Notes under the pieces: generated by a model | Database searches by the model: none | Told to the model about the DNA's origin: nothing | What the model saw: the letters and a program-made list of their open reading frames with translations, nothing else | Program-made: the position numbers and the translations under genes | In this document: piece by piece, positions 5,902-32,000 of the stretch | Layout: every line of letters begins with the position of its first letter | Numbering within the stretch: position 1 is the first letter of the stretch | Assembly: GCF_000148385.1 (NCBI RefSeq) | Contig: NC_014537.1 | Coordinates: 150,001-182,000, forward strand | Length of the DNA stretch: 32,000 nt | Origin: Vulcanisaeta distributa DSM 14429 | GTDB taxonomy: Archaea; Thermoproteota; Thermoprotei; Thermoproteales; Thermocladiaceae | Direction of reading: 5' to 3'

Positions 5902-5993
5902 AGTTACTGAAACCTCAAGTTACTGAACCCGATAAACAACTCGGTAACTAACCATAGAGAAAAGCAATTTAAAAATGCGTATCTCGGTAACTA
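5902..5993. promoter_or_regulatory. divergent promoter region with repeated AGTTAC/GTAACT motifs and TATA box
   Basis: 'AGTTACTGAA' occurs at 5902-5911 and 5918-5927. The inverted-orientation 'TCGGTAACTA' occurs at 5941-5950 and 5984-5993. The TATA-like 'TTTAAAAA' at 5968-5975 lies about 22-25 nt upstream of ATG 5993/5996. Confidence 0.4.
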
Positions 5994-12369: not shown

Positions 12370-12730
12370 TTAGCAATTGCCTAACCTCAACCTCCGTATC
12401 GTACGTGAAGGAGACCTGGCTACGCCTTGCCAATTCATAGAACGCCAGGTATAGGCCCCTGGTCAGAGACTTAGCGTACTTATCAACAACACCTATTACG
12501 TAGGGCAGACCATCAACACCAATATTCCTGGCGAGCCACTTAACGAGGCCTTCAACGACATCCCTCATCCCATCATACGTACTCCGCAGAACCTCAACCC
12601 TGAATACCCTTGACCCCAACCCACTGTACACGTACCAAAACACCCTCTCGGGGAAGGTGTACGTGGTTATCTTACCACTTTCGCGATAGACATGCCTGAA
12701 GGGCCCAATGATTATTGGGTCGAGGACCCC
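12341..12730 (-). CDS. nurA: NurA-like nuclease, C-terminal part (frame open from 12730; ORF track lists 12341-12643)
   Basis: 'GLPYVIGVVDKYAKSL' resembles the C-terminal NurA motif. The reading frame stays open upstream to 12730, where it meets the other frame at a G5 run. Confidence 0.55.
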   Translation of the reverse strand, partial: GVLDPIIIGPFRHVYRESGKITTYTFPERVFWYVYSGLGSRVFRVEVLRSTYDGMRDVVEGLVKWLARNIGVDGLPYVIGVVDKYAKSLTRGLYLAFYELARRSQVSFTYDTEVEVRQLLSEVVGSAVA

Positions 12731-19616: not shown

Positions 19617-20666
19617 CTAGTGTGGTTCTTTAGTGAGCGTAAGTAGGGTGTTTGGTACATTTGATGGTTCTAGGTTCTCAATTTTCATTATCGTGTTTAT
19701 TAACTTAGTGAGGTCGTAACCCTGTGTAAATGGTATGTAGTGAATGAATCCTTTACGACTCTCTGTATATATCATGGAGCGAGGTATTACGTTATTACTA
19801 AATAATCTAAATAATGATAAAAACTTCATGGTATTTACTAATGAAATCATAATTAGCAGTCTTATTATTGATTCGTACGTGCCATCACTCAATTGCTCAT
19901 CACCGTACGTCGCTGACGAGACGACGCCCATGTACCTAAAGCCCTTATTCAATATTACCATGGTGACAAATTTAACGGGTTTCACAATTGAAGAATCAAC
20001 TTTAAGTTCAGTTGTACTGTATATGTATAAGTTCGATCCATCATGCCTGCACCCATCACCCCCCTGCTTAAGTACATTGAATAACTCCTCGTGTTTCTCG
20101 ATCTCACTAAGCTCTATATTTTCATAACTCGATGCAAATGCTTCTCCTAAAATGACAAGCCCAAAGTATTCAGTATTATTTTGATGATAATAAGGATTAT
20201 AATGGTATTCCCTGGCTAAATATTTACAATTTATAACTCTAGGAATTGCGTTAATAATGTTAATAATTTTATTGGTATTTTGAGCATTGGTCTCAAAGCG
20301 TGAAAGCAATAGGTCCATTCCTGACAATGTGCCGAGATCTCTCGGTAGTATTACCGGTTTAAAATAACTCAGCTCATTCAGTATTTGATTATTAATGTCA
20401 TACAATGTACGCTTAATGGCACTGTAATTACTCAGTTTTAATTTATAAATTCCCTTACCACTTCTTTCAATCAAATCTGCCTTTACCAGCCTTTCTAATA
20501 ATCTACCCACTGTACCTTTACTTTTTACGCTGTACTTTTTATGAAGAAACTCAAAAATCTCTTTAAACGAAGCGCTGTAATCAGAAGGTTTAGAACTTAA
20601 GTAATCTAAAACGTCTATCTCCTGCGCCCTTAACCCACTGGTCACACCTGCCCTCTTCCTTACCAT
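19617..20666 (-). CDS. wHTH transcription regulator with about 270-aa C-terminal domain (TTG 20681 also possible)
   Basis: 'DVLDYLSSKPSDYSASFKEIFEFLHKKYSVKSKGTVGRLLERLVKADLIERSGKGIYKLKL' fits a wHTH pattern. ATG 20666 lies about 26 nt from the TATA 'TTATAAAAA' (20690-20698). It is divergent from the 20775+ operon. Confidence 0.65.
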   Translation of the reverse strand: MVRKRAGVTSGLRAQEIDVLDYLSSKPSDYSASFKEIFEFLHKKYSVKSKGTVGRLLERLVKADLIERSGKGIYKLKLSNYSAIKRTLYDINNQILNELSYFKPVILPRDLGTLSGMDLLLSRFETNAQNTNKIINIINAIPRVINCKYLAREYHYNPYYHQNNTEYFGLVILGEAFASSYENIELSEIEKHEELFNVLKQGGDGCRHDGSNLYIYSTTELKVDSSIVKPVKFVTMVILNKGFRYMGVVSSATYGDEQLSDGTYESIIRLLIMISLVNTMKFLSLFRLFSNNVIPRSMIYTESRKGFIHYIPFTQGYDLTKLINTIMKIENLEPSNVPNTLLTLTKEPH

Positions 20667-20687
20667 AACATGTTTGCGCAAGAAATG

Positions 20688-20774: not shown

Positions 20775-21650
20775 ATGTTGGTGAGCCAGATGGGTCAGGT
20801 GGAGTTAGAGGGTGTTGATGAGGTCCCGTTAAAAACAGGTCTCGAGTGGGTTCCGGAGGAGGGTGTTGAGTTTAAGGGGCGTAGTGGGGTTGATTGGCAT
20901 GGTGGGTTCTGTGAGGGCATGGTGTATGACGTACTCGCCTATTACAAGCCGTATACGCACAATAGGGATTGGGGTATTTACTATGTGGTGCCGAGTATCG
21001 CCAATGATTTAGAGAGACTTATTGAGACTATGTATCATCAAGGCATTAATGAGGAATTGATAGCATTAACGGTAGCCATATACCCAAGCTTAATAACAAT
21101 ACATGAGGTTTGCCACCACACTCTCGAGAATGTAAGGAGGTTAATGGGGCTAAGAAACATCTATGAATCACATGATGAGGGCTTGTGCGAGTATACTGCG
21201 TTCAAATTAATTGAGGGGTCGGGTATTGCCCATCCATACCCGCTAGTAGCTTTGCTGAACCCGTTAACGCCCATGGACATTCATTTCCATGGCGACCACA
21301 TTCACGTAATAACGAGGTTTGGGGACTTCGTAATACCATTCCCAATATCAATACGCTGGCGTTGGGGAGTTAGATATCCACTAATGGTTAGTGGGGGTGA
21401 TGTTAGGAGGGCGCTTACCATACTCTATAAATGGTGGGGTAGGGGTAATGACCCCATTTATAGGCCTAGAATAAGCAATAACTATACCGCGGAGTTCCTG
21501 AGGAATTACTGGCTGCAATTGAGGGGTGACTTGGTACCATTCATGGACCACGCACTAACAAACAAGCCAGTCAAGGAGAGCCTATGGACAAAACTCAACA
21601 CTGACGATAAAAGAATCAGCATAATTACGAAATGCGGTGATAAGGCATGA
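20775..21650 (+). CDS. HExxH metallopeptidase-like protein (291 aa)
   Basis: 'TIHEVCHHTLE' (HExxH at 21102-21116) is followed by 'HDEGLCEYTAFKL', which resembles the HExxH...E..A..FA layout of ImmA/IrrE-type (M78-like) peptidases. It is a paralogue of the 5993-7186 product. Its stop overlaps the next ATG as ATGA. Confidence 0.65.
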   Translation: MLVSQMGQVELEGVDEVPLKTGLEWVPEEGVEFKGRSGVDWHGGFCEGMVYDVLAYYKPYTHNRDWGIYYVVPSIANDLERLIETMYHQGINEELIALTVAIYPSLITIHEVCHHTLENVRRLMGLRNIYESHDEGLCEYTAFKLIEGSGIAHPYPLVALLNPLTPMDIHFHGDHIHVITRFGDFVIPFPISIRWRWGVRYPLMVSGGDVRRALTILYKWWGRGNDPIYRPRISNNYTAEFLRNYWLQLRGDLVPFMDHALTNKPVKESLWTKLNTDDKRISIITKCGDKA

Positions 21651-24600
21651 TAAACAACGAAGAAACAATACTTAAAAACGGGATTGAAATAAATAACAAA
21701 ATGTCTAAGTCTCTCCCCTGCTCGCCTTGGATTGATTATACTAAGGCCCATGAAAATATTCGTAATGAATTAGAGAATACCATAACGAACTACGTAATAA
21801 AGCAGGTAAAGGGTATACGAACGCCCGTGATCGTGGCCCCCTACGGCTCAGGAAAAACAACGCTTCTAAGGCACTTACTATGTTATTCAATAGGGCAGGG
21901 TATACCTGCCATAAAGATAAACTTACTTGATTTCGTAAGTTTCCTAGAGTCGCAAAATATTAGTGATATAAATGAGGATAACCTTATCGGCTATATATCA
22001 TTATTTTGTACTAAAGCGATAGAACAAACAATTAACTGTTTGCAATCAAGTGGACAAAACTGCTTATCTTATGTTAGGAGTATTATTGATGAATTTAGTA
22101 CCATAAACATTAATAAGGATATTGCAATTGAAGTGTTAAGTAAATTCCTGAAAACTAAAGATCAAAGGTGTGTACTGCTTATTGACGAAATCGAGGAGGG
22201 TTACGAACATCTAAGGAAGATTGTAAGATTCGGAACAACGCCTTTCAGGGGAATTTTTGACTTGGTATATCAGGGTTTGCCAAGAATATTCCCGATTCTC
22301 GCGTTTGGACCATCATCGATTTACAGCGAGATTGTTTCTAACGCTGGCTCATGGAGGGTAGTCTCGTATGTAATACCGATGATTATGCCAACAAATATTA
22401 CGCAAAGGGTTACGAATTTGTCTCCGTACATTTCTAACTTAATTTGGTGGATAGGTAAGGGTAGACCTGGGCATGTTGATAAATTATTACAGATGAAAAT
22501 ACATGTTGAGGCTCAGAATGCATTGACTAACTGCCAGGGTATACTAGAGACAGATGCTGTGAAGAACCTGCAGGGTACATACGTAGTAGGCAATATACCG
22601 TACATTGATCAAGCAGCCTACAGGAGAATAGAAACAAGCTTAAATAATGATGAAAGAAATCTCTTCCGCATCTTATCAGTATTAGTGGGTCCTGTTCCCG
22701 AGTCTATGCTGAGCAAATGTATTGATATGAATAAAATAAAGTATAGCAAATTACCAGAGTATTTCATAAAATCCACACAGCTTATTAAGGTTGATGATGC
22801 CTTAAATATTCTCAAGAAGGTGCTCCTAAACCTTGGCTACACAATAAATGATTTTGCTAGAGACATACTTTACGCATTATTCTATTCATGGAGTGATCAT
22901 GATATGATGATACTCGATAAGAGGGGCCTAACCGAGTTGATAGGTATTGCTAAGGATATGGCAATCGAATTCTATCAAAACGACCTATTCAATGCATTAA
23001 GTAAACTGGACCTGGACGCACTATATACGGAGTTATTAAACAGTAAGAGAGATAGTAATGAGCATTACTATGCCCTAGCACCCTTAACGACCCTTGGCGC
23101 TATTTATCCCCCTGTTTTGTTAATGCCATTAATTGGTTGCTGTAAAGAAAAATCGCTTGATGATTTATATAGAATATTTGACAAATTTACAATAAAAGAT
23201 TTACTCAATCTAAGTGATAGACTTCAGGAAGAAATAATTAATTATGCCCACATGAGAGGTATGGACAATGAGACAATCCAAAATATGAATAAGTATAAAG
23301 TAGTTTTTGTATTAAGCAAATACATAAAGAATGATGAATTCATAAAACAAATTAAGAAACTCCTCACTAATGACTATATACATGGTATAGTATTTATACC
23401 ATTGCCTTATAATGAGGACCCAAGCTCGATAGTAAGCTCACTAAGAGAGTTGTGGCAGGATTACATTGATGTTGGATTAATCGACATTATGTACCCAAGT
23501 GCTCGCGCAATACTGTTCTTAATGGGACTTATTTATAATAAGTACGTAAGATGTGACGTTAAGTATACGGATAGAGAATTAGGTATGTATGATCAATTCA
23601 TGAGGGCTATAATTGAATTACTAAAAGAAATCATTATTAATAGATTACCGTCAAAAAGAAATAAAATAGCTCAAGCCATAGTATCCAGCAGAACCACTGA
23701 AGCAATTAAAGAGGAGCTTGAAAATATACTAAGTGAAGGATATAATAAAGTGGGAAGCGGAAAGGAAAGGTATTTACTCCTTCTCGCCGGCGCTGAACAT
23801 AGAAATATACTTGAGCAATATCTAAATACATTAATAGCAAAGAAAAGCGGCAAATATGCTTCATCAACAGGCATTATTGAAGATGTGGTAAAAAGATTTA
23901 AGGAACTTATTAATACATTGCATGATCATGGAATTGAAATAAAGCATGAAGTGACGAGCGGATTTGAAAGCTTTTTGGATAATGCCTGGGATTATTACGA
24001 TGACATAAGAAGCAGATGGGATCAAATATATGATCAGATCCAAAGCGGAGACGTATTTAATAAAGTACTCGAGGTATTAAACGATTTATACACGATTTCA
24101 AACTTGCCGAAGGAGGCGGAGACTCGTCAGTTAATTGAGGAGGAATTTAATAAAATAACGAAGAAAGTGATCGGCAACAATGAAAATAATATTAAAAGTT
24201 TAATTACTTGGATAGTACTACAAAAAATGCTCAATAAACATCCAGATAAGCTACCCTTTAATGATGAAGAGGAATGTAAAGATTCCACGGAAGAATTAAG
24301 CTCTTCTCTAAGTAAGTTAGGGGATCTCGATAATATCGTTAGTGACATAGATAAGATACTTAATAAAATTGGAAAATACATTGATAATAAATCGGTAGGG
24401 ATATTAAATGAACTAGAAAAAATTAAAGAAATAATAAATAATACTAAAGATAGTATTAATGAGGTATCGCATTATATAGAAGATTGCACTAATCGGCTTG
24501 TGGCTTTGAACACAGTAGAGAAAATGTGGTTTTTAGAATTTATAATGAGAGGCTGGAGTTCAGGGAGAAAAAGAAATAAAGGATTAATGGCTAACTTGCT

Positions 24601-25006
24601 CGATAATATTTCTAGTATAATTGATGATATTAATTCTTCACTACTTAATAACTTAAAGACTGTATTAAGGAATTTGAATGATATTGAAGCAGATCTTGAA
24701 GAACTTAAAAAATTAACCGCAAGTGATAATGAGTTATCATTAGGAAGCGTATTCGCGATAGCGGATTATGGTGCGTTAATAGAGCGTTATAGAAAAGACC
24801 TTGAGCAGGTATTGTTGAATTCAGGTACAATTCCTGAATTAGCTCAAAAGCTAAGTATACTAAAAGACGCCGTTAATGACTTAGCAAACACAATTAAAAC
24901 TATTAGGAGGGACAATGAGGTACTAGCGTTAATAAAAAAGATTGAATATAATATTAATAGGTTATCTAAGGAGATTCAAGAAATTGAAGGAGGTGAGATT
25001 TCATGA
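21647..25006 (+). CDS. large P-loop (AAA+/STAND- or BrxC-like) ATPase with about 800-aa helical/coiled-coil C-terminal region, 1119 aa
   Basis: Walker A 'APYGSGKT' (21836-21859) and Walker B 'CVLLIDEIEEG' (22172-22189) lie about 110 aa apart. 'GKGRPGHVDKLL' is sensor-2-like. The C-terminal third is K/E/N/I/L-rich with heptad-like character. Confidence 0.8.
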   Translation: MINNEETILKNGIEINNKMSKSLPCSPWIDYTKAHENIRNELENTITNYVIKQVKGIRTPVIVAPYGSGKTTLLRHLLCYSIGQGIPAIKINLLDFVSFLESQNISDINEDNLIGYISLFCTKAIEQTINCLQSSGQNCLSYVRSIIDEFSTININKDIAIEVLSKFLKTKDQRCVLLIDEIEEGYEHLRKIVRFGTTPFRGIFDLVYQGLPRIFPILAFGPSSIYSEIVSNAGSWRVVSYVIPMIMPTNITQRVTNLSPYISNLIWWIGKGRPGHVDKLLQMKIHVEAQNALTNCQGILETDAVKNLQGTYVVGNIPYIDQAAYRRIETSLNNDERNLFRILSVLVGPVPESMLSKCIDMNKIKYSKLPEYFIKSTQLIKVDDALNILKKVLLNLGYTINDFARDILYALFYSWSDHDMMILDKRGLTELIGIAKDMAIEFYQNDLFNALSKLDLDALYTELLNSKRDSNEHYYALAPLTTLGAIYPPVLLMPLIGCCKEKSLDDLYRIFDKFTIKDLLNLSDRLQEEIINYAHMRGMDNETIQNMNKYKVVFVLSKYIKNDEFIKQIKKLLTNDYIHGIVFIPLPYNEDPSSIVSSLRELWQDYIDVGLIDIMYPSARAILFLMGLIYNKYVRCDVKYTDRELGMYDQFMRAIIELLKEIIINRLPSKRNKIAQAIVSSRTTEAIKEELENILSEGYNKVGSGKERYLLLLAGAEHRNILEQYLNTLIAKKSGKYASSTGIIEDVVKRFKELINTLHDHGIEIKHEVTSGFESFLDNAWDYYDDIRSRWDQIYDQIQSGDVFNKVLEVLNDLYTISNLPKEAETRQLIEEEFNKITKKVIGNNENNIKSLITWIVLQKMLNKHPDKLPFNDEEECKDSTEELSSSLSKLGDLDNIVSDIDKILNKIGKYIDNKSVGILNELEKIKEIINNTKDSINEVSHYIEDCTNRLVALNTVEKMWFLEFIMRGWSSGRKRNKGLMANLLDNISSIIDDINSSLLNNLKTVLRNLNDIEADLEELKKLTASDNELSLGSVFAIADYGALIERYRKDLEQVLLNSGTIPELAQKLSILKDAVNDLANTIKTIRRDNEVLALIKKIEYNINRLSKEIQEIEGGEIS

Positions 25007-26274
25007 GTATTTCATTAAGTATAAAAGAGTATACTAATAAATTAAATAGTAATTATCAGCAAATTAAAAACTCCCTAAAGGAGTTAAACAATATTTTAGA
25101 ATCTCTAATGGAATTAATTTCATTGGCTAAAAAATTAAGGTTGAAAGTACCGCCTTTTCCAAGTATCGAAAAAATTGAATTGGATCAAAATAAATTAAGC
25201 AATGTTATTAATGGCTTAAGAAATTACTCCAATAATGTAATTTTGGTCATTATGAATCAATTATTGCCTGGCCTAAGTAATGATATTAATGATTGCGAAA
25301 TAATAACAGATATGTTAAATGGTACTAAAAACATACTTAAGGACTTTATTGATAGCGTGCAGGATTTATGGAAATATCGTAATGAACTTAAGTATTTACG
25401 CCAGTGCATCAAAGGGTATTGTGATCTTGTCACTAGGGTAATACATGATGGAGAACTGAAGGAGGAGGTAAAGGTATTGTCTGAGATATTCAGCATTAAG
25501 GATAAGCTTAATGGAATAAGCTTGCCTATTACGAAAGGGTTAAATCAATGCATAGATAATGTTATAAATAATGTAATAAAGGATTGCAATCTTCCTTCAT
25601 TTAACGATATCGAGAAGAGTCTCAAGAATATGCTTGACTTGCTCACGTATTTTGATAATATGATAAGTGTAGTTAATGGATTACGTACTTTGCAGTATAA
25701 TGAGTATTCACAACAAAAGGGAGATTATTGCCCTGAAATAGCGAAGATCTTTGATGATTTTATGAGCACCATTAAGGGACTTAATCTCAATGAGCTAACA
25801 TTAAAATGCGGTACACCTGAGGAATTAATAGGTCTCGTTAAAGAGATTGAGGATAAAAGGGATCAATATGTCAAGAATATACGAGATAGTCAAGCTCAGG
25901 TGATGAATTACTTAAACAGATTTAAAAAGGTATTAAGCAATAGTGAATTACGAGAAGAGTTTGAGAATACGCATAATTCGTTGGAAAAAATAACTAATCA
26001 ACTTATTACGGAGATATCCGGCAAAAGTGTGGAAGGAGAGAATATTAGACAGATATTGGATGAACTGCAGAATAAGTTAAACAGTATTTTACAGTTCATA
26101 TGTGAGAAGTTGATACCCGGGTTAGGATTGAAAGATGAGGAGTTTAAAGTAATAGTTGAATTAATCAGGAAAGGTGGAATCGCAGATTTTAAAGATTTAA
26201 GTGATGTAGGTCGTGACATAATCATCGAGCTTTGTGAAAAGGGTATATTGAGGTGCCAAGTAAGTTTGGGGTGA
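25003..26274 (+). CDS. coiled-coil protein (423 aa) with possible C-terminal wHTH
   Basis: ATG 25003 overlaps the upstream stop (ATGA). The sequence is N/K/E/L/I-rich and helical throughout. The C-terminus 'EEFKVIVELIRKGGIADFKDLSDVGRDIIIELCEKGILRCQV' is wHTH-like (tentative). Confidence 0.65.
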   Translation: MSISLSIKEYTNKLNSNYQQIKNSLKELNNILESLMELISLAKKLRLKVPPFPSIEKIELDQNKLSNVINGLRNYSNNVILVIMNQLLPGLSNDINDCEIITDMLNGTKNILKDFIDSVQDLWKYRNELKYLRQCIKGYCDLVTRVIHDGELKEEVKVLSEIFSIKDKLNGISLPITKGLNQCIDNVINNVIKDCNLPSFNDIEKSLKNMLDLLTYFDNMISVVNGLRTLQYNEYSQQKGDYCPEIAKIFDDFMSTIKGLNLNELTLKCGTPEELIGLVKEIEDKRDQYVKNIRDSQAQVMNYLNRFKKVLSNSELREEFENTHNSLEKITNQLITEISGKSVEGENIRQILDELQNKLNSILQFICEKLIPGLGLKDEEFKVIVELIRKGGIADFKDLSDVGRDIIIELCEKGILRCQVSLG

Positions 26275-26278
26275 GCCT

Positions 26279-29206
26279 GTGATTTGTTATAAGTTCGATA
26301 AGCCATTAATACCTTCTGTTGAGGAATTATTCCGTGAATGCGGTAAGGACGTTAATTTCATGAATAACTACATTATTAATAGTGTGCTTTCGTACATTGA
26401 AAGGAAAGAGCAGGATTTAGTGCTTGGAATGCAATATAATGATTGGGTAATCATCGACAGTAGCGCTAAGGACGAGATTAAGGAGCAAATAATTAATTAC
26501 ATTACTAAGTTTGCGATAGCTTGTAACGGGACTAATCGTAATAAGGACTATCTAAAGAAGGTGAGAGAGGAAGTTGATAGTAATAGGGTTGTTGAAAAGG
26601 CCCTATGCTACTTATATGCATTTGGCATATACGGTGACTGCATTAGTAGGTATTTGTTGATTAAACCCCCTGATGGTGATGAAGTACCTGACTATGAAAT
26701 CCCTGGTTTAGATAATGAAGTTGTTGAGAGGGCGAAGGACGTATTTAATAAATGCGTTGAGAAACTTAGTAAGTGGCGTGAGTATTGGGTGAGGAGTAGG
26801 TTCATAGAGATTGTTCGTGACTTATACCTACTCAAGCAGAGGTTCCCTGATAAGTCGGTGTTTGAGTCATACATGCTTATTGATAGGGTATTTGCATATG
26901 CATACCCACGTAATTTACCGCTTGGTGTTTACACGGTAAGTGACGTATGTGGTGATGGCACGTCAACGATTAACCTAAAGAAGTTAACTTACAGCTTCTT
27001 CAAGTCATACCATGATTACCTAATAGGTGCGGTAAATGAAAATATAGATGAGGAATTCGAAGAATTTTGGGAAATATTCTGTTATTTTCTACGTAAGGCA
27101 TTTAGTGATAGAAGATTCTATAGGTTTCAGATAAGGGGCGTTGAAACCGCTATTAAGAAATTATTGGGTATCTTCAATACATCCGAAAGCCGAGGGGCTG
27201 GTAAGATTGATTATTTAATAATTGCCGCACCAACAGGTAGCGGTAAGACGGAGGTTATGGTATTAACAGTATTAATTGCTGCGCTGGCGAGAAAGATAAT
27301 CCTAATAAGGCATGGACTTGATGATGAGAAAAACGTACCGATCGCATTAATGGTATATCCAAGGAGGTCCCTAGCCAATGATCAAGTATCAAGATTAATA
27401 GAGTACCTGAGTATAATAAATGAGAGGTTAAAGAACAAACTGCTGCTAACGATCAATTATACGGATATAAGAGACAAGAGAGAGTATGAAGATGCCATTA
27501 ATTCTGTTAAAGTCGGCGCAAAGCCAGTCCCCTTGCAGCTTAAGTATGGGGTTCTAGCATCCTTAATTAAAGATGGTGAGAATTATTATGTCGAACTTAG
27601 ATTTTTGACATGCCCCAGGAGGTTCACGTCAGGGTCTGGCAGTATTTATCCGAGATTTAGGGTTGTGAGGAGGGGTGATAGGTACGAGGTTGATGATTCG
27701 GTTGTGTACTGTGGTGATAATGCATTGAGTTTCATAGCCCTAACTAAGGACAGGGTTAGGGAGAGATTGGGCGATATTCACATAACAATATTCGAAACAC
27801 TTAGGCATAACTTATTTTCGAGAAGTTTCGAGAATTTATTCGGCATCTGTAGAAAGGCTGGGGATAACAAGGTGGTGTTTGATTACCCACTGATAATAGT
27901 TCTTGATGAGATACACACATACACTGACATACCTGGTGTAAGGTACACTTACATGCTTAGGAGGGTTCTAAATAGAATTAGGTATTATAGCGAGAATTGT
28001 AATGGGGATGGGTTACCAGGTAATCTCGTAATAGGCATGAGCGCAACAATACCTAATGCGGGTGAATTCCTTAGTAAATTATTCTTTTCCGAGGATATTG
28101 AAAAGAATATTAATGACTACCTAATTACTGTTGATGATGAGGAAACAATACCTCTCGGTAATGAATACTTCATAATAACGGTACCGACGCGTGGGGCTCC
28201 CGTGGATGCGTTAACGGTATCTATACAGACGATAATGAATACATTTTACAACATACCATCCATACCAATAGATAGTGGATATGTAAAGAAGGGCATAGTC
28301 TTCCTGGAAGAATTCAATGTATTGAGGAGGATGAAAAGGGAACTTTGGAATAGGGAGCAGGGAGCAATATATAGAGTTGTTGAAATTAACAATGAAGAGG
28401 TTGCTTTTGGTCTTCAAGACTTGAGAAATCCAAGAAATAGGTATTTTTACGAGGTAACACTGGAGGATTACGGTGATGATGCGAAAGTCGTCGATAATAT
28501 AAGAAGGGGTAAAATAAGCAGAGTTATTAGCGCTAGGTCGTGGCTTGATGGGGAGTTATGGTGGGGTTACATGCTAGATACTATAATCAATTACTATCCG
28601 AAGAATAACTTAAGTGATTACGTAACCACTAGATTTAACAGGGTTGTTGAGTATTCAAGTAGAAAGCGAGGGGATTTAAGGAGGGCCGATATAGTGGTCT
28701 CAACGAGTAGTTTAGAGGTGGGTGTTGATTATTCAGATGTTGTTTTAATATATCAACATGGTGCTCCCCCCAATATATCATCGCTCATACAGAGGGCGGG
28801 CAGGGGTGGTAGAAGGCTTTTTGAGAATCCGTTAATGAGGATTATAGTGGGTATTCAATTGTCGCCGGATCTACCGCATCAATCCTGGCTTTTCGAAATA
28901 TTTACCAGGGTCAAGGACTTAAGAAAGGCGATTGATTATGACAAGCTATTCCTGCCGAAAGCGAGTGAGGAAATAATGAAACAAGTGCTCGCTGAATTAG
29001 CCCTTGAATACTATGTATTGAATAACGGAAAGTTAACAAATAATTGGGAATGCAGATTAACTGGTTGGCTTAAGAAAAATAAAGAAAATATAATTAATTA
29101 CTCACAGTGGGTTTTCGCTAATGTTGAAAAAAGTAGGTTAAATAGCTTCATTGATGAGATAATAAATTACCTTGATAAAAATTGCAGAGATCAAAGTGGA
29201 AGATAG
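26279..29206 (+). CDS. SF2 DEAD/DEAH-box-type helicase (DrmA/Lhr/Ski2-like core) with about 300-aa unknown N-terminal domain, 975 aa
   Basis: Motif I is 'AAPTGSGKTE' (27224-27250), Ia 'VYPRRSLANDQ', II 'VLDEIHTY' (DEIH at 27905-27916) and III 'MSATIPN'. Motif V is 'VVSTSSLEVGVDYSDV' and VI 'QRAGRGGRR' (28790-28816). The GTG start lies 4 nt after the upstream stop. Confidence 0.9.
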   Translation: MICYKFDKPLIPSVEELFRECGKDVNFMNNYIINSVLSYIERKEQDLVLGMQYNDWVIIDSSAKDEIKEQIINYITKFAIACNGTNRNKDYLKKVREEVDSNRVVEKALCYLYAFGIYGDCISRYLLIKPPDGDEVPDYEIPGLDNEVVERAKDVFNKCVEKLSKWREYWVRSRFIEIVRDLYLLKQRFPDKSVFESYMLIDRVFAYAYPRNLPLGVYTVSDVCGDGTSTINLKKLTYSFFKSYHDYLIGAVNENIDEEFEEFWEIFCYFLRKAFSDRRFYRFQIRGVETAIKKLLGIFNTSESRGAGKIDYLIIAAPTGSGKTEVMVLTVLIAALARKIILIRHGLDDEKNVPIALMVYPRRSLANDQVSRLIEYLSIINERLKNKLLLTINYTDIRDKREYEDAINSVKVGAKPVPLQLKYGVLASLIKDGENYYVELRFLTCPRRFTSGSGSIYPRFRVVRRGDRYEVDDSVVYCGDNALSFIALTKDRVRERLGDIHITIFETLRHNLFSRSFENLFGICRKAGDNKVVFDYPLIIVLDEIHTYTDIPGVRYTYMLRRVLNRIRYYSENCNGDGLPGNLVIGMSATIPNAGEFLSKLFFSEDIEKNINDYLITVDDEETIPLGNEYFIITVPTRGAPVDALTVSIQTIMNTFYNIPSIPIDSGYVKKGIVFLEEFNVLRRMKRELWNREQGAIYRVVEINNEEVAFGLQDLRNPRNRYFYEVTLEDYGDDAKVVDNIRRGKISRVISARSWLDGELWWGYMLDTIINYYPKNNLSDYVTTRFNRVVEYSSRKRGDLRRADIVVSTSSLEVGVDYSDVVLIYQHGAPPNISSLIQRAGRGGRRLFENPLMRIIVGIQLSPDLPHQSWLFEIFTRVKDLRKAIDYDKLFLPKASEEIMKQVLAELALEYYVLNNGKLTNNWECRLTGWLKKNKENIINYSQWVFANVEKSRLNSFIDEIINYLDKNCRDQSGR

Positions 29207-29220
29207 ATGGTGATGAATCC

Positions 29221-31965
29221 ATGAGCACTCTTCAGAAGATAATTGAATCGTCTAAATTATTAAGAAATTACATACCTGATAGATTATTCGCCGAGTCAAA
29301 TTTGCCCCAGGTTAAAGTAGTGCTTGATGGCAAAGTCATTGCAGTAGAAGATGCATCATTGGTAGTCTCATCCTCTGGGTACATACCAGGAAAGCCCACG
29401 TATAGGGCATTACCAACAACAGGCACTTTCATACCCCTAGATAATAGCCGTTTTGACGAAAATATTAGGCCTATTATTACTCGAATTTCATATAATGATA
29501 GGAAATTGTATGAACCATCACCTGGTTATCCGAGTCGCTATAGTATTGATGAAATAGAGATTCCCGATGAATACAAGTATTTACTGTATTTACTTAAGGA
29601 GGTACTTAAAACTGATTATTTACCAATTGAATTTTATGCTCTTAGTAAGATTAACCCATTAAGATTTAGATGCCCAGCCAGTAAAAAGAAAAGAATATCT
29701 CTGGATAATACTCATTGGTTATTCTTTTCAAGAGCAAGAACCAATGTTGAGGTTACTAACAACATTAGTTTTTCACACTCATTTTATGCATACTTAGATA
29801 GAAGCAATTCATTTCCTAGGTTCTCGATTTATAACCCGCAGGGATTAATAAAGCCTATTAAGCAATATAATATTTGTGGAATACTTGATGCAGAGATTTA
29901 TACTGTTAAAAATGCATTTTACGGTATTTATGCTGTCGATGTATATGCGGTTTTAAAGGGCAAGTACGTAGTTGGCGATTCTAAAGGTGGGTGGTGTCGT
30001 TACACAATTAAGAGCTCCGATATAAAGACGCCTAGAGATAATACCAGCTCTACTTCAATGTATTGTATAAGCACTAAAAATGGCTGTAGATATAGTAACT
30101 ATTTCGTTAAGATTTTTGTAGACGGTGATCATAACAATTGGAATCCTGTAATACTTGGATACGAGATTAAAAACACGAGAATGCTCACGCTAGACATTAA
30201 GGATTTAATAAGAAAAATAGCCTCATCAATAGTCAATATCGGTGAAGTAGAGCAAGGACAGGACTTAAAGCTTGATTATGAATATAAAACCCTCAGCACA
30301 AATACTGCAGTAGTTAATCTACTAAGGCATTACCTATCTCATGACTTGGTAATAACGTATTACTTAACAAGGCTTGGCTTCACAAAGATCGATAAATACG
30401 TTAATCTTTCAATACTAATAAATGATTTATTCCTCGGTAATAAACTAACCGTGAAGTTGGAAAAGGACGATGTTAAGGATCTTGCTAGTGATATTATTAA
30501 TGATTTCATTAAATCATTTGATAAGGAAATAAGGCAGTCCTGGATATCATTATTACGATATGTATTATCCACGGTCAAAGGTGAGAGGTTAGAAACATAC
30601 CGTATATTTCGTGAATGTAAGAATAATAAAAATACTCAAAGATACTGTATTCCTCACGAGGAAGCGGAGAATATTTGGAATAACATAGAAAAGCGAATAG
30701 AAGGTATCTTAAAGAACTATAGTGAAATACCGAGTTACTTTGGGGTTAGGACTACTTATTGGTACGTTGGCGCTATTATTGATATCATAAAGCATACATT
30801 AAGTCATCATTTAATAAGAACTATTAGCACAAGATATAGTGTTAACCCAAGTAAACTTATTGAGTATTATTACGAAATGAGAGGAGACGCTAAGGTTTCC
30901 ATCATGGAAAGGGACTCTGGGGGTATTGGTGTATTAAATGTGGCCTTTGAGTCATGGGAAAAATCTGATAAGGAATTGAGGGAGAGACAAGTCGCTATTG
31001 AGGACCTCATACTATCCTTAGGTAAGTGCCTTGTCGGTACTCCTGAAGACTTACTGCACTTCGCGTTGCTGAATGATGATATTCGTGAAAGGTTATGTAG
31101 CGGTAAAGATAATGATGTAAGAGAGGGTATAAGGGAGATTATTAGGAGATTGAACATAATAGTTACCCCAGATGAGTTTGAGGAGACTATTAAGTTATGG
31201 AAATCAATATACGAGGAGGCTGATAGACTTACACGAATATTACGCAATGGGAATAATTACTTAGGTAATGAACCATGTAAATTATTAAGGGCTGTTCATG
31301 AGTTAAGACATGAACTGGAGAAGAAAATGAGGAGGTTTCCGGACATGGACGAATTGATGGCTTATATGCTCGAGAATATTGATGAATACTCCATACTTAA
31401 TGATTTGCTAACTAAGATGCTAGAGAGGGGGCTTAGGACCTCTGGCAGGTTTAGGGAATTTCTTCATGAGTTGTATGGAACGAATGATTATGTTAAGAGG
31501 TTCATAGGGGGTGTTAATTTTATCCTGAGAAGCAGAATACAGGACATCGATCATTTAAAGGAACTGGTGAGAAACAGTAATGATATCGTGTCAAAGTACG
31601 GCACTAAGGCGCTTGAGAAAATAACTGAATGTGTAGGTAAGCGAAGGGATGGTGATGATACGTGTAAAGCAGTTATACATGCATTGAAGCTTTTGGGTAG
31701 GGCACTCCGTGCGGTGTTAATGAGGATCTCGCTACTTAGTTGTAATGGTGCATGCGGTATGTGCTATGTGAATACTAAGTCATGCAGTAGGTTTGGCGCA
31801 CCCTTCATTCAGGCCAGGACACTTGATAGGAGGGTCCTTAAGGTACTTGCCTCCGAACTCGTTAGGCACATGAGCGATATCGTTAGGGATTACTACGGCG
31901 TTAATAAGGATGTTGATGTTATTGTGGAGCTTGGCGGTGAGCCCCGTACATTGAGGTGTGAATAA
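29221..31965 (+). CDS. DUF1998-like (DrmB/MrfA-C-terminal-like) protein with C-terminal Cys cluster, about 914 aa (ORF open from TTG 29182)
   Basis: 'HTLSHHLIRTIS' (from 30793) and 'ERDSGGIGVLN' fit the DUF1998 core as I recall it. The terminal 'CNGACGMCYVNTKSCSRFG...ARTLDRRVL' (Cys codons at 31741, 31753, 31762 and 31783) has the same layout as the DUF1998 Zn-cluster. ATG 29221 lies 15 nt after the helicase stop. Confidence 0.8.
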   Translation: MSTLQKIIESSKLLRNYIPDRLFAESNLPQVKVVLDGKVIAVEDASLVVSSSGYIPGKPTYRALPTTGTFIPLDNSRFDENIRPIITRISYNDRKLYEPSPGYPSRYSIDEIEIPDEYKYLLYLLKEVLKTDYLPIEFYALSKINPLRFRCPASKKKRISLDNTHWLFFSRARTNVEVTNNISFSHSFYAYLDRSNSFPRFSIYNPQGLIKPIKQYNICGILDAEIYTVKNAFYGIYAVDVYAVLKGKYVVGDSKGGWCRYTIKSSDIKTPRDNTSSTSMYCISTKNGCRYSNYFVKIFVDGDHNNWNPVILGYEIKNTRMLTLDIKDLIRKIASSIVNIGEVEQGQDLKLDYEYKTLSTNTAVVNLLRHYLSHDLVITYYLTRLGFTKIDKYVNLSILINDLFLGNKLTVKLEKDDVKDLASDIINDFIKSFDKEIRQSWISLLRYVLSTVKGERLETYRIFRECKNNKNTQRYCIPHEEAENIWNNIEKRIEGILKNYSEIPSYFGVRTTYWYVGAIIDIIKHTLSHHLIRTISTRYSVNPSKLIEYYYEMRGDAKVSIMERDSGGIGVLNVAFESWEKSDKELRERQVAIEDLILSLGKCLVGTPEDLLHFALLNDDIRERLCSGKDNDVREGIREIIRRLNIIVTPDEFEETIKLWKSIYEEADRLTRILRNGNNYLGNEPCKLLRAVHELRHELEKKMRRFPDMDELMAYMLENIDEYSILNDLLTKMLERGLRTSGRFREFLHELYGTNDYVKRFIGGVNFILRSRIQDIDHLKELVRNSNDIVSKYGTKALEKITECVGKRRDGDDTCKAVIHALKLLGRALRAVLMRISLLSCNGACGMCYVNTKSCSRFGAPFIQARTLDRRVLKVLASELVRHMSDIVRDYYGVNKDVDVIVELGGEPRTLRCE

Positions 31966-32000
31966 TGCTATGGATATGTAAGGACTCTAGTAGAAGCCTT
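31965..32000 (+). CDS. 5' end of a further operon gene (partial, truncated by window)
   Basis: ATG at 31965-31967 overlaps the TAA stop (31963-31965) as TAATG, and the frame stays open to the window end (MLWICKDSSRSL...). Only 12 codons are visible. Confidence 0.25.
   Translation, partial: MLWICKDSSRSL

What the first reader, a model, noticed from the sequence alone, without database searches (positions are those of the whole stretch)
26279..31965. Separate helicase and DUF1998-like genes: DrmA/DrmB-like pair or split DruE-like protein with large unassigned domains
Seen: the 975-aa protein has all SF2 motifs (I, Ia, II DEIH, III, V, VI). It also has a 300-aa N-terminal region and a roughly 150-aa insert between motifs Ia and II ('LTCPRR...VYCGDN') with no motif I recognise. 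The 927-aa partner carries the DUF1998-like core only in its last 400 aa or so ('HTLSHHLIR', 'ERDSGGIG', CX3CX2CX6C at 31741-31785). The first 530 aa or so are unassigned. The combined length of about 1900 aa is close to the fused DruE-type proteins. Inference: the unassigned regions could be sensor or effector domains specific to this system.
Basis: partly seen in the sequence, partly recalled or inferred. Interest (0 to 1): 0.7.

Follow-up and report, generated by a model that had tools for sequence, protein, structure and literature searches.

The report
Split DpdJ-like helicase, archaeal Dpd system
The two genes encode the two halves of one defence helicase (a DpdJ/YprA-type enzyme cut into a motor protein and a zinc-binding "canopy" protein); in every related hot-spring archaeon with enough sequence they sit next to a nuclease and to enzymes predicted to write 7-deazaguanine into DNA, so this is an undescribed archaeal variant of a known restriction-modification system.

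Summary
The window comes from Vulcanisaeta distributa. It carries a 975-aa SF2 helicase gene (26279-29206) and, next to it, a 914-aa partner gene (ATG at 29221; 927 aa from the TTG at 29182). The partner has an invariant HTxSHH…ExxxGGxG…CX3CX2CX6C signature.

The split resembles DrmA/DrmB, and DrmA is the closest solved fold. By sequence, however, the pair is a split DpdJ. The helicase family aligns to residues 88-738 of a fused bacterial DpdJ-like protein (E 1e-41). The partner family aligns to residues 865-1555 of the same protein (E 1e-19), in the same order. That bacterial protein lies in a dpdC-dpdA-dpdB-dpdJ-dpdK cluster.

Most of the "unassigned" regions are inherited DpdJ features:
- the insert in RecA1
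- the region after RecA2
- a roughly 240-aa helical insert that splits the DUF1998/MZB domain

They are not system-specific effectors. Only the first ~167 aa of the helicase has no counterpart.

In 7 of 7 related loci the pair is followed by a DpdK-like PLD nuclease. In V. distributa this gene is Vdis_0180 and starts 7 nt past the window end. The same loci also carry a DpdA-DpdC fusion, a second TGT paralogue and an AAA+ ATPase. DruE, DISARM and housekeeping readings are rejected.

Verdict: a new variant of a known kind, of moderate interest.

The parts
26279..29206 (+). Helicase half of a split DpdJ-like (YprA-family, SF2) helicase, 975 aa. It contains an N-terminal domain, RecA1 with a beta-rich insert, RecA2 and a C-terminal helical tail.
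   Evidence: Pfam DEAD and Helicase_C. PADLOC DpdJ 3.1e-40 and NCBIfam DpdJ 3.9e-34 are the best hits. hhalign to DpdJ-like P0169 residues 88-738, E 9.6e-42. AF2 pLDDT 87.6. Foldseek top hit is DrmA, 7s9w_A.
27227..27250 (+). Motif I (Walker A), APTGSGKT
   Evidence: invariant in 26 homologues.
27461..27778 (+). Beta-rich insert in RecA1 (aa ~395-500) with two invariant Cys (C445, C478). It looks like a degenerate form of the Zn-binding module that DpdJ-type proteins carry at this position.
   Evidence: Strands E417-483 in the AF2 model. The region aligns with P0169, which has C..C…CxxC here. Bell et al. report one Zn module inserted in RecA1 of Dpd helicases.
27905..27916 (+). Motif II, DEIH
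28790..28813 (+). Motif VI, QRAGRGGR
29221..31965 (+). Canopy half of the split DpdJ-like helicase (914 aa from the ATG; an alternative TTG at 29182 gives 927 aa). It corresponds to the OB-CON-DUF1998 module of YprA helicases.
   Evidence: 100% identical to the NCBI V. distributa hypothetical protein of 914 aa. hhalign of the 44-sequence family to P0169 residues 865-1555, E 1.2e-19, colinear. The family always sits directly after the helicase.
29251..30210 (+). Partner N-terminal, beta-rich region (aa ~11-330). It is homologous to the segment that follows RecA2 in fused DpdJ proteins and is the candidate OB-CON part. The fold itself is not confirmed.
   Evidence: PADLOC DpdJ model positions 768-817 match aa 4-57 of the 927-aa form. 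The family profile hits P0167 and P0169 just after their Helicase_C domains. hhalign blocks. AF2 pLDDT is below 50 here.
30793..30972 (+). First half of the MZB/DUF1998 domain (HTLSHH … ERDSGGIG)
   Evidence: Pfam MZB model positions 1-57 at E 0.049 on the native sequence. Full-model match once the insert is excised. Motifs invariant.
30973..31689 (+). Helical insertion of ~239 aa that interrupts the MZB/DUF1998 domain
   Evidence: Confident helices in the AF2 model, aa 607-840. Also present in, and alignable with, DpdJ-like P0169. Bell et al. describe helical insertions in the Dpd canopy.
31690..31860 (+). Second half of the MZB/DUF1998 domain. It holds the four-Cys cluster CX3CX2CX6C (nt 31741-31785) followed by N…Q…LDRR.
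   Evidence: Invariant in 44 sequences. Pfam MZB model positions 51-79. Aligns to CRCNCPSC of P0169.
21647..25006 (+). 1119-aa P-loop ATPase (Walker A GSGKT, Walker B LLIDEIEE) with a long helical C-terminal part. It is a conserved upstream partner of the pair.
   Evidence: Weak AAA/STAND/ATPase_2 Pfam hits. Present in 6 of 7 related loci with conserved Walker motifs. The 4-nt overlaps with its neighbours suggest one operon.
25003..26274 (+). 423-aa all-helical (coiled-coil-like) protein that always follows the big ATPase
   Evidence: Only weak coiled-coil-type hits. Same position in 6 of 7 loci.
20775..21650 (+). 291-aa protein of unknown family and first gene of the row. Contains HEVCHH (an HExxH-like motif). 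Its membership in the system is uncertain.
   Evidence: No family hits. A clear homologue exists only in the Vulcanisaeta MAG L001 (57% identity).
19617..20681 (-). Divergently oriented wHTH (MarR/AbiEi-like) protein, a candidate regulator
   Evidence: Pfam MarR_2 7e-4 and PADLOC AbiEi 3.4e-5. A homologue occupies the same position in L001.
31965..32000 (+). Run-up to the DpdK-like PLD nuclease gene Vdis_0180. The annotated ATG (MSIEELMRRF) lies at window-equivalent position 32007. An in-frame ATG at 31965 overlaps the partner's stop codon.
   Evidence: L008 extends 71 nt past the partner and reads …SMSIEELMRRF. P0172 is Vdis_0180, 241 aa, PLDc_2, with the HxK…D…GSxN motif. The L001 orthologue hits DpdK at 1e-9 and 2.8e-11.

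Best explanation
The two genes encode one YprA-family defence helicase of the DpdJ type, split into two polypeptides. The 975-aa protein is the motor: an N-terminal domain, RecA1 carrying a degenerate Zn-module insert, RecA2 and a helical tail. The 914-aa protein is the canopy that covers the motor in YprA-family helicases. It holds the post-RecA2 (OB-CON-like) region and a four-Cys MZB/DUF1998 domain that is interrupted by a ~240-aa helical insertion.

Together with the PLD nuclease gene that starts 7 nt beyond the window, the pair forms the restriction arm of an archaeal (Thermoproteales) Dpd-like system.

Inferred mechanism, by analogy with bacterial Dpd and with DISARM DrmAB:
1. A DpdA-DpdC fusion, helped by a second TGT-like protein and an AAA+ ATPase, swaps guanines in host DNA for preQ0 and converts them to a 7-deazaguanine derivative.
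2. The helicase-canopy heterodimer loads on single-stranded ends of incoming DNA and translocates using ATP.
3. On unmodified DNA it licenses the PLD nuclease to degrade the DNA.
4. The conserved 1119-aa P-loop ATPase and 423-aa helical protein upstream probably act as an additional sensor or scaffold.

Shown here: the homology, the split, the colinearity with a fused DpdJ-like protein and the gene neighbourhoods.
Inferred only: complex formation, the chemistry of the DNA modification, self/non-self discrimination and nuclease recruitment.
For: - Best family hits for the helicase are DpdJ: PADLOC 135.8 bits (E 3e-40) and NCBIfam 117.6 bits. DrmA scores 45 bits and DruE 39.8 bits. Family members P0022 and P0028 match DpdJ model positions 45-627 in one stretch (E 1e-47 and 1e-48).
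- Colinear mapping onto one fused protein. P0169 (1652 aa, NCBIfam DpdJ 528 bits) lies in a dpdC-dpdA-x-dpdB(DndB)-dpdJ-dpdK cluster. The helicase family aligns to its residues 88-738 (E 9.6e-42). The partner family aligns to residues 865-1555 (E 1.2e-19). The alignment covers the N-terminal IPxxLFxExNLPxV motif, GGxG, the helical insert and the Cys cluster.
- The MZB/DUF1998 match passes Pfam's cut-off once the insert is excised (26.6 vs 24.2 bits, model 1-79 of 80). Five of ten diverse members behave the same way.
- The helicase model (pLDDT 87.6) is closest to DrmA of the DrmAB complex and next to MrfA.
- Neighbourhood, 7 of 7 loci from Vulcanisaeta, Caldivirga, Thermoproteus and metagenomes: helicase, partner and PLD (DpdK 1e-9 and 2.8e-11); a DpdA-DpdC fusion (NCBIfam DpdA 279.8 bits, above the 200-bit cut-off; PADLOC DpdC 3.5e-14); a second TGT; an ATPase_2/BrxD-like ATPase; and, in some loci, a queuosine-precursor transporter or a QueF-like gene.
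- The V. distributa PLD gene Vdis_0180 abuts the window.
- DrmA and DrmB form an obligate complex in which the DrmA C-terminus wraps the DrmB N-terminus (PMC9142583). DpdD-K confer restriction in Salmonella (PMC10164549).
Against: - Neither protein reaches the NCBIfam DpdJ equivalog cut-off (117.6 vs 800 bits).
- On the native sequence, Pfam MZB is sub-threshold (14.8 bits). Full-length profile comparison to a generic YprA alignment is not significant (E 0.23).
- The partner's AF2 model is poor (pLDDT 56; aa 1-325 and the MZB core below 50). The OB-CON fold and the Zn site are therefore not confirmed structurally, and Foldseek found nothing.
- The modification genes are not in the window. They could not be fetched for V. 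distributa itself, so the link rests on relatives.
- There is no DndB-type DpdB and no DpdD-I homologue in any locus.
- No experiment shows 7-deazaguanine in Thermoproteales DNA.
- No long disordered loop comparable to DrmA's trigger loop is seen in the helicase model, so the activation mechanism may differ from DrmAB.
Confidence: 0.78

Rival explanations
1. It is a DISARM system: DrmA helicase, DrmB DUF1998 protein and DrmC PLD nuclease, with self-marking by DNA methylation.
For: The three-gene layout is the same: a split helicase, a DUF1998 protein and a PLD nuclease. DrmA is the best solved structural match (E 4.8e-14, ~949 aligned columns). PADLOC DrmC hits the PLD at 4e-7. Bell et al. state that DISARM is the only YprA branch that is consistently split.
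Against: - No DNA methyltransferase, DrmD or DrmE in any of the 7 loci.
- NCBIfam DrmA models score 15 bits against cut-offs near 1000, while DpdJ scores 118-165 bits.
- The PLD matches DpdK better than DrmC, and its PLD domain starts at aa ~10, leaving no room for DrmC's N-terminal four-helix bundle.
- The neighbouring genes are DpdA/DpdC/TGT-type.
- No trigger-loop-like disordered segment.
- No DpdJ structure is available in the PDB for comparison, so DrmA ranking first does not discriminate.
Confidence: 0.07
2. It is a split DruE, that is, a Druantia-type helicase cut in two.
For: The combined length of ~1890 aa is similar to DruE. PADLOC DruE models give weak hits (E 3e-11 to 1e-5). The top PDB sequence hit, 9tu7_Y, is a 2108-aa DEAD/DEAH helicase.
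Against: - The DruE hits cover only motif I or motifs V-VI (about 40-60 aa) and are about 100 bits weaker than DpdJ.
- No DruA-D, DruH, DruM, DruF or DruG genes are present.
- No match is seen to the features that define the ARMADA/Druantia branch in Bell et al.: a BrxA-like insert after RecA1, a beta-barrel Zn module and MarR-like insert in RecA2, and a C-terminal nuclease domain. This point rests on sequence evidence only.
- The colinear match is to a DpdJ-like protein.
Confidence: 0.02
3. It is a housekeeping DNA-repair helicase pair (MrfA/YprA-only, Lhr or Hel308-like) and is unrelated to defence.
For: MrfA is the second-best fold match. NCBIfam Lhr-type and ligase-associated helicase models hit at E~1e-13.
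Against: - Those hits cover only ~50 aa around motifs V-VI.
- The family is tiny and patchy: 37 partner hits in 1.84 billion representatives.
- The operon has 31-40% GC against ~50-55% in parts of the flank.
- It always sits with a PLD nuclease and DpdA-type genes.
- The surrounding genes are AbiEi-like regulators and unannotated ORFs, typical of a variable island.
Confidence: 0.03
4. In V. distributa itself the locus is an orphan or decayed restriction arm, consisting of the helicase, canopy, PLD and the big ATPase pair. The 7-deazaguanine writer would be absent or elsewhere in the genome. The pair would then either work without base modification or be non-functional.
For: The modification genes are not in the 32-kb window. 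They could not be retrieved downstream: the Logan contig ends 71 nt past the partner, and the genome is absent from the searchable collections. The DISARM core can restrict without its nuclease and without methylation sites (PMC9142583).
Against: In all 7 relatives with enough sequence the writer genes lie within ~7 kb of the PLD gene. This includes the closest relative, the Vulcanisaeta MAG L001, which is 65-71% identical and has the same upstream genes. All catalytic motifs of the V. distributa helicase, partner and PLD are intact.
Confidence: 0.1

Closest known systems
DpdJ + DpdK of the bacterial Dpd (7-deazapurine in DNA) restriction-modification system (Thiaville 2016; Gedara 2023, PMC10164549; Bell et al. 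2025, bioRxiv 10.1101/2025.09.15.676423)
   Same: - DpdJ is the best profile match.
- The pair aligns colinearly end to end with a DpdJ-like protein from a dpdA/B/C/K cluster.
- The Zn-module insert sits at the same place in RecA1.
- The helical insertions sit at the same places in the canopy.
- A small PLD nuclease without an N-terminal four-helix bundle is encoded directly downstream.
- A DpdA-type transglycosylase and a DpdC-type domain lie in the neighbourhood of all relatives.
   Different: - The helicase is split into two genes throughout the family, whereas DpdJ is one polypeptide.
- The four-Cys cluster is retained, whereas Bell et al. report it lost in canonical DpdJ.
- Scores fall far below the NCBIfam equivalog cut-off.
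- The helicase has an extra ~167-aa N-terminal extension.
- No ALBA-like C-terminal domain was detected.
- DpdA and DpdC are fused.
- There is no DndB-type DpdB; an ORC/BrxD-like AAA+ ATPase and a second TGT paralogue are present instead.
- There are no DpdD-I genes. A 1119-aa P-loop ATPase and a 423-aa helical protein take that position.
- The hosts are hyperthermophilic Thermoproteales archaea.
DISARM core DrmA/DrmB/DrmC (Ofir 2018; Bravo 2022, PMC9142583; PDB 7S9V, 7S9W)
   Same: [quoted passage not shown]
- DrmA is the closest solved structure to the helicase model.
- Both belong to the same DISARM/Dpd branch of YprA helicases as defined by Bell et al.
- A four-Cys DUF1998 domain is present.
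   Different: - No methyltransferase, DrmD or DrmE.
- DrmA and DrmB profiles barely score.
- No trigger-loop-like disordered segment.
- The PLD lacks room for DrmC's N-terminal four-helix bundle.
- The DUF1998 domain is interrupted by a ~240-aa helical insertion.
- Self-marking is predicted to use 7-deazaguanine rather than methylation.
BRIGADE systems of haloarchaea (Bell et al. 2025)
   Same: Both are archaeal Dpd-like hybrids. Both combine a YprA-family helicase, a PLD nuclease and a predicted 7-deazaguanine pathway.
   Different: BRIGADE usually encodes two YprA-like helicases, at least one of them ARMADA-like with a BrxA-like insert, and was reported only in halophilic archaea. Here there is a single, split helicase of the Dpd branch, in Thermoproteales, with different accessory genes.
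MrfA/YprA (Bacillus subtilis repair helicase; PDB 6ZNP)
   Same: Same helicase family. It is the second-best fold match. [quoted passage not shown]
   Different: MrfA is a single 750-aa chain without the N-terminal domain, the RecA1 insert or the helical insertions. It pairs with the MrfB exonuclease in repair and is not in a defence island.

Membership tests
YprA-family SF2 helicase (DUF1998/MZB helicases) | Complete SF2 motifs I, Ia, II (DExH), III, V and VI, and two RecA-like domains | tested here: met
   Motif positions. Invariance in 26 homologues. Pfam DEAD and Helicase_C. AF2 model with Foldseek hits to DrmA and MrfA.
YprA-family SF2 helicase (DUF1998/MZB helicases) | MZB/DUF1998 domain with a four-Cys zinc cluster, fused to the helicase or encoded next to it | tested here: met
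   The native sequence is sub-threshold (14.8 bits vs 24.2). With the helical insert excised it scores 26.6 bits (E 9.7e-6) over model positions 1-79 of 80, and 5 of 10 members hit MZB. hhalign to a YprA DUF1998 region gives E 3.9e-4. The four Cys are invariant in 44 sequences. Zinc binding itself was not tested.
YprA-family SF2 helicase (DUF1998/MZB helicases) | OB fold and CON beta-sheet between RecA2 and DUF1998 | tested here: inconclusive
   Partner aa 12-~330 aligns with the post-RecA2 segment of DpdJ-like P0169 and P0167. The AF2 model of this part has pLDDT below 50, and the fold search was empty.
DpdJ (NCBIfam NF041067, equivalog) | Whole-protein score at or above the curated cut-off of 800 bits | tested here: not met
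   117.6 bits for the window helicase, 159-165 bits for relatives, and no significant hit for the partner.
DpdJ (NCBIfam NF041067, equivalog) | Single polypeptide carrying both helicase and canopy | tested here: not met
   Two genes in the window and in every relative. Helicase homologues are 808-1024 aa and partner homologues with E below 1e-29 are ~750-917 aa.
DpdJ (NCBIfam NF041067, equivalog) | Colinear homology over the full length to a DpdJ located in a dpd cluster | tested here: met
   The helicase family aligns to P0169 residues 88-738 (E 9.6e-42) and the partner family to residues 865-1555 (E 1.2e-19). P0169 lies between dpdB (DndB) and a PLD gene, next to TGT and DUF6884 genes.
Dpd restriction-modification system | DpdA, the TGT-like DNA transglycosylase that is the signature gene | tested here: inconclusive
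   Present next to the pair in 7 of 7 related loci. The L001 protein scores 279.8 bits against a 200-bit cut-off. It is not in the window, and V. distributa downstream DNA could not be obtained.
Dpd restriction-modification system | DpdB (DndB/ParB-type ATPase) and DpdC | tested here: not met
   A DpdC-like domain is present but fused to DpdA (PADLOC DpdC 3.5e-14, Pfam DUF6884). No DndB-type protein is present. An ATPase_2/BrxD-like ATPase is found instead.
Dpd restriction-modification system | DpdK, the small PLD nuclease after DpdJ | tested here: met
   The L001 orthologue hits NCBIfam DpdK at 1.1e-9 (38 bits, below the 100-bit cut-off) and PADLOC DpdK at 2.8e-11. V. distributa Vdis_0180 is 77% identical, has an intact HxK…D…GSxN motif and starts at window-equivalent position 32007.
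Dpd restriction-modification system | 7-deazaguanine (dPreQ0 or dADG) present in genomic DNA, and restriction of unmodified DNA | not testable with these tools
   Requires LC-MS/MS of the DNA and transformation or infection assays.
DISARM | DNA methyltransferase (DrmMI or DrmMII) plus DrmD or DrmE in the operon | tested here: not met
   None found in the window or in the 7 related loci.
DISARM | DrmA and DrmB profile membership | tested here: not met
   NCBIfam DISARM_DrmAL scores 15.1 bits against a cut-off of 999. PADLOC DrmA scores 45 bits, on motifs V-VI only. No DrmB hit for the partner.
Druantia (DruE) | DruE profile membership and companion genes (DruA-D, DruH, or DruM/F/G) | tested here: not met
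   The DruE hits are at most 39.8 bits and confined to single motifs. There are no companion genes; the one DruC hit to the 423-aa protein has E 0.02 and is coiled-coil noise.

The most novel reading that the evidence does not exclude
Hyperthermophilic Thermoproteales (Vulcanisaeta, Caldivirga, Thermoproteus) mark their own chromosomes with a 7-deazaguanine base: preQ0 or ADG, or archaeosine or preQ1 in loci that also carry a QueF-like gene. This would use a previously undescribed Dpd-type system with three distinctive features. The writer is a DpdA-DpdC fusion working with a second TGT paralogue and an ORC/BrxD-like ATPase instead of DpdB. A new 1100-aa P-loop ATPase and coiled-coil pair replaces DpdD-I. 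It would be the first cellular 7-deazaguanine DNA modification system in Thermoproteota, and a second YprA lineage, after DISARM, in which the motor/canopy split is fixed.
Probability: 0.5. Interest if true: 0.7.

Novelty: new variant of a known kind. Interest (0 to 1): 0.5.

Why it matters
7-deazaguanine in DNA is known from bacteria and phages, and it is predicted for haloarchaea (BRIGADE).

A conserved Dpd-like cluster in Thermoproteales would extend this chemistry to hyperthermophilic crenarchaea. V. distributa DSM 14429 is a cultured type strain, so mass spectrometry of its DNA is a direct test.

For helicase biology, the family shows that the motor/canopy split seen in DISARM arose, or persisted, in the Dpd branch as well. 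It also retains the zinc cluster that canonical DpdJ has lost. That makes it a useful intermediate for reconstructing how DISARM and Dpd diverged.

The unannotated 1119-aa ATPase and 423-aa helical protein are candidate new defence components.

For annotation, both genes are now "hypothetical" or "DEAD/DEAH helicase". They can be renamed as the DpdJ-like helicase subunit and the DpdJ-like MZB (DUF1998) subunit.

Tried and rejected
- Sequence-profile search of the partner family against all PDB chains: no hit even at E 10.
- Full-length hhalign of the partner against a generic fused YprA alignment: E 0.23, not significant. It became informative only after trimming the insert or using a DpdJ-like target.
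- AlphaFold2 of the partner with a 21-sequence alignment: poor model (pLDDT 56; N-terminal 325 aa and the MZB core below 50). Its Foldseek search against the PDB returned only membrane-protein noise. The OB-CON fold is therefore not structurally confirmed.
- Fetching V. distributa DNA downstream of the window failed:
  - the genome-collection scan returned relatives but not V. distributa
  - the only contig carrying the partner ends 71 nt after it
  - Vdis_0180 is not on record as a called gene
- The large 1484-aa ORF downstream in Thermoproteus CP80 (L006) was tested as a possible fusion of the 1119-aa and 423-aa proteins. HMMs of both families found nothing, so it is unrelated.
- ZorA, MakB, spectrin and similar hits to the 1119-aa and 423-aa proteins were dismissed as coiled-coil composition matches.
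- The supplement of Bell et al. (as held) does not mention Vulcanisaeta or Thermoproteales. No paper in the library links DpdA with Thermoproteota; the co-occurrences with "Crenarchaeota" that were opened were reference-list titles.
- No AlphaFold-Multimer run was possible. There was no complex option, and the two chains together exceed the 1200-aa limit.

Full report
**Source and layout.** The window is from Vulcanisaeta distributa (Thermoproteales). The partner ORF is 100% identical to an NCBI "hypothetical protein [Vulcanisaeta distributa]" of 914 aa on a 2,374,137-bp contig. Five co-directional, tightly packed ORFs occupy 20775-31965. They encode proteins of 291, 1119, 423, 975 and 914/927 aa. 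GC content drops to 31-40% over this row, against ~50-55% at 10-15 kb.

**Checking the observation.**
- The 975-aa protein has motifs I (APTGSGKT, aa 317), Ia (aa 360), II (DEIH, aa 543), III (SAT, aa 588), V (aa 809) and VI (QRAGRGGR, aa 838). All are invariant in 26 homologues. Pfam scores DEAD at 1.6e-13 and Helicase_C at 1.7e-7.
- LTCPRR (aa 443) and VYCGDN (aa 476) lie in a beta-rich insert between motifs Ia and II.
- In the partner, HTLSHHLIR, ERDSGGIG and CX3CX2CX6C lie at nt 30793-30819, 30907-30930 and 31741-31785. These residues are kept in all 44 family members examined.
- One correction: the real start is probably the ATG at 29221 (914 aa). That is what NCBI annotates and what the homologue N-termini support.

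**Family size.** The families are small. There are 28 full-length helicase relatives (34-71% identity) among 5.8 billion clusters. An exhaustive HMM search of 1.84 billion representatives found 37 partner relatives. All named sources are Thermoproteales or hot-spring-type metagenomes.

**What the helicase is.** The best profile hits are DpdJ: PADLOC 135.8 bits (E 3e-40) and NCBIfam 117.6 bits (E 3.9e-34). These cover aa 269-720, including the RecA1 insert. DrmA (45 bits), DruE (39.8 bits), Cas3 and Lhr-type models hit only ~50 aa around single motifs. Relatives P0022 and P0028 match DpdJ model positions 45-627 in one stretch (E 1e-47 and 1e-48). The AlphaFold2 model is good (pLDDT 87.6, pTM 0.87). 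Its best PDB matches are DrmA in the DrmAB complex (7s9w_A and 7s9v_A, E ~5e-14, ~949 aligned columns), then MrfA (6znp, 8e-11), then Brr2, Hel308, PolQ and Lhr. No DpdJ structure turned up in the PDB searches, so DrmA ranking first does not argue against a DpdJ assignment.

**What the partner is.**
- On its native sequence the Pfam MZB (DUF1998) match is sub-threshold (E 0.049, 14.8 bits vs 24.2). It covers only the first half of the model. Another family member hits only the second half.
- This is explained by a ~239-aa helical insertion (aa 585-823) between the GGxG motif and the Cys cluster. The insertion is confidently helical in the otherwise poor AF2 model.
- When I removed this insertion in silico, the window protein matched MZB over model positions 1-79 of 80 at E 9.7e-6 and 26.6 bits, above the gathering cut-off. 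Five of ten diverse members behaved likewise.
- hhalign of the trimmed core against the DUF1998 region of fused YprA-like helicases gave E 3.9e-4, in register.
- Independently, the partner's N-terminus (IPxxLFAESNLPxV…SS(A/S)GYxPGKPTYR) matches DpdJ model positions 768-817. It also matches the segment just after Helicase_C in two fused proteins, P0167 and P0169. NCBIfam calls both DpdJ-like, at 255 and 528 bits.

**The decisive comparison.** P0169 (1652 aa) lies in a compact bacterial-type cluster: DUF6884/DpdC, TGT/DpdA, a 274-aa gene, DndB/DpdB, P0169, then a 174-aa PLD.
- The helicase family aligns to P0169 residues 88-738 (E 9.6e-42, 611 columns).
- The 44-sequence partner family aligns to residues 865-1555 (E 1.2e-19, 631 columns).
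- The order is the same. The alignment includes the RecA1 insert, where P0169 has C…C…CxxC and the archaeal family keeps only C445 and C478. It also includes the N-terminal canopy motif, GGxG, the helical insertion and the Cys cluster.
- The pair is therefore a DpdJ-type helicase split between the post-RecA2 helical region and the canopy.

This fits Bell et al. (bioRxiv 10.1101/2025.09.15.676423). They describe YprA helicases as RecA1-RecA2 plus an OB-CON-DUF1998 canopy. They note a single Zn module in RecA1 and helical insertions in the canopy of Dpd helicases. [quoted passage not shown] They also state that only DISARM is consistently split.

The parts with no counterpart in P0169 are helicase aa 1-167 and its C-terminal helical tail (aa ~875-975). 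The first is well folded and has four nearly invariant Cys. The tail may play the role of the DrmA C-terminus, which wraps the DrmB N-terminus (PMC9142583); this is inference.

**Genomic context.** I examined seven independent related loci:

| Locus | Source |
|---|---|
| L001 (same contig as L005) | Vulcanisaeta MAG |
| L002 (same as L003) | assembly GCA_015521735.1 and a Logan run; organism not named |
| L004 | ENA metagenome |
| L006 | Thermoproteus sp. CP80 |
| L007 | Caldivirga MAG |
| L011 | JGI metagenome; distant family member |
| L013 | Logan metagenome; distant family member |

In all seven, helicase and partner are followed directly by a ~240-265-aa gene. It carries a Pfam PLD domain in five of the five loci with precomputed Pfam calls except L011, and it is a BLAST homologue of the L001 PLD in L006 and L007. 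The L001 protein hits DpdK at 1.1e-9 and 2.8e-11, and DrmC at 4e-7.

Within a few kb lie:
- a ~600-630-aa DpdA-DpdC fusion (NCBIfam DpdA 279.8 bits, above the 200-bit cut-off; PADLOC DpdC 3.5e-14)
- a second ~300-aa TGT paralogue
- a ~315-aa ATPase_2/BrxD-like ATPase
- a ~220-250-aa protein of unknown family
- in some loci, a queuosine-precursor transporter (Vut_1) and/or a QueF-like gene

The 1119-aa P-loop ATPase, with conserved Walker A and B motifs, and the ~420-aa helical protein precede the helicase in 6 of 7 loci. No locus has a DNA methyltransferase, a DndB-type DpdB or DpdD-I homologues.

In V. distributa itself, the PLD gene is Vdis_0180 (241 aa, 77% identical to L001, HxK…D…GSxN intact). 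It begins at window-equivalent position 32007. A short contig that extends 71 nt past the partner reads …SMSIEELMRRF. I could not obtain sequence further downstream. The presence of the writer genes in V. distributa is therefore inferred from synteny, most strongly from L001, which shares even the upstream regulator and the 291-aa gene.

**Mechanism.** Shown here: the homology, the split, the colinearity and the gene linkage. The rest is inferred from established knowledge.
- In Salmonella, DpdA with the DpdB ATPase exchanges guanine in DNA for preQ0, DpdC converts it to ADG, and DpdD-K confer restriction (PMC10164549).
- In DISARM, DrmA and DrmB form an obligate heterodimer that binds ssDNA with a 5' overhang. 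ATP hydrolysis is essential. DUF1998 acts as an allosteric hinge (PMC9142583).
- I therefore propose that the 975-aa and 914-aa proteins form a heterodimeric translocase. It would load on ssDNA ends of incoming DNA. On DNA lacking the 7-deazaguanine mark it would engage the PLD nuclease.
- The helicase model has no long disordered loop like DrmA's trigger loop, so autoinhibition probably works differently.
- The big ATPase and helical pair may be a sensor or scaffold. Its ATPase domain weakly resembles the small BrxD-like ATPase of the writer module.

**Rivals.**
- DISARM proper is rejected for lack of a methyltransferase and of DrmA/DrmB profile membership.
- Split DruE is rejected on scores, absence of companion genes and the colinear DpdJ match.
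- A housekeeping repair role is rejected on patchy distribution, low GC and defence-type neighbours.
- An orphan restriction arm in V. distributa remains possible, at roughly 10%.

**Novelty.** This is a new variant of a known kind. [quoted passage not shown] Their text and the held supplements do not mention Thermoproteales. No paper in the searchable library links DpdA with Thermoproteota.

The new points are:
- a fixed split of a Dpd-branch helicase that retains the zinc cluster
- the DpdA-DpdC fusion, with a TGT paralogue and an AAA+ ATPase in place of DpdB
- a new ATPase and coiled-coil pair
- a hyperthermophilic crenarchaeal host that is cultured and can be tested directly

Interest is moderate (0.5). 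It would be higher if 7-deazaguanine were found in V. distributa DNA.

Noticed in passing
window 10336-13506 (- strand): A 677-aa HerA/FtsK/TrwB-like ATPase (10336-12369) lies next to NurA-like ORFs. The NurA domain is divided between two ORFs: 12712-13506 matches model positions 3-168, and 12341-12643 matches positions 198-253. This suggests a frameshifted or split NurA in a HerA-NurA pair.
   Followed up: partly
window 5975-10060 and 16336-19388 (+ strand): There are two runs of sizeable co-directional ORFs (403, 408 and 557 aa; 396 and 621 aa). None has a hit in Pfam; the 396/621-aa pair also has none in NCBIfam or PADLOC. Together with the AAA_5/MCM-like ATPase at 3952-4980 (-) and an RHH/CopG gene at 1549-1944, the left two-thirds of the window looks like a variable island or integrated element. 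No tRNA gene is present.
   Followed up: partly
window 15357-16196 (-) and 19617-20681 (-): Two AbiEi/MarR-type winged-helix genes are present. The second sits divergently upstream of the operon, and a homologue occupies the same place in the Vulcanisaeta MAG (L001 129-1094). It may be the system's regulator.
   Followed up: partly
window 20775-21650: The first gene of the row (291 aa) has no family hit but contains HEVCHH, an HExxH-like metalloprotease motif. A clear homologue exists only in L001. Other loci have unrelated genes at this position.
   Followed up: partly
L001 13940-15805 (-), 17594-18514; L011 16751-18652, 15863-16747; L013 1028-2833, 13434-14324: In the related loci DpdA is fused to a DpdC-like (DUF6884) domain and is always accompanied by a second, shorter TGT paralogue. 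This recalls the eukaryotic QTRT1/QTRT2 heterodimer. A DndB-type DpdB is replaced by an ATPase_2/BrxD-like ATPase.
   Followed up: partly
L011 18668-19015; L013 13106-13444 (-): A ~112-115-aa QueF-family gene sits in the cluster of two distant loci. In Crenarchaeota, QueF-like is an archaeosine synthase. The DNA base written by some of these systems may therefore be G+ or preQ1 rather than preQ0 or ADG.
   Followed up: no
P0168 (871 aa, metagenomic): A weak partner-family hit (E 2e-4, to the middle helical region) is fused at its C-terminus to a PLD nuclease domain (PLDc_2 4.5e-18; DrmC and DpdK models hit). This could be a canopy-nuclease fusion, which would support a physical link between canopy and PLD.
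   Followed up: no
L006 14704-19158: Thermoproteus sp. CP80 lacks the 1119-aa ATPase and 423-aa pair. It has an unrelated 1484-aa ORF with no family hits downstream of the PLD gene, possibly an alternative accessory component.
   Followed up: partly
window 22000-31000: The operon shows strongly positive GC skew (up to +0.35) and low GC (0.31-0.40) compared with the rest of the window. This is consistent with horizontal acquisition.
   Followed up: no
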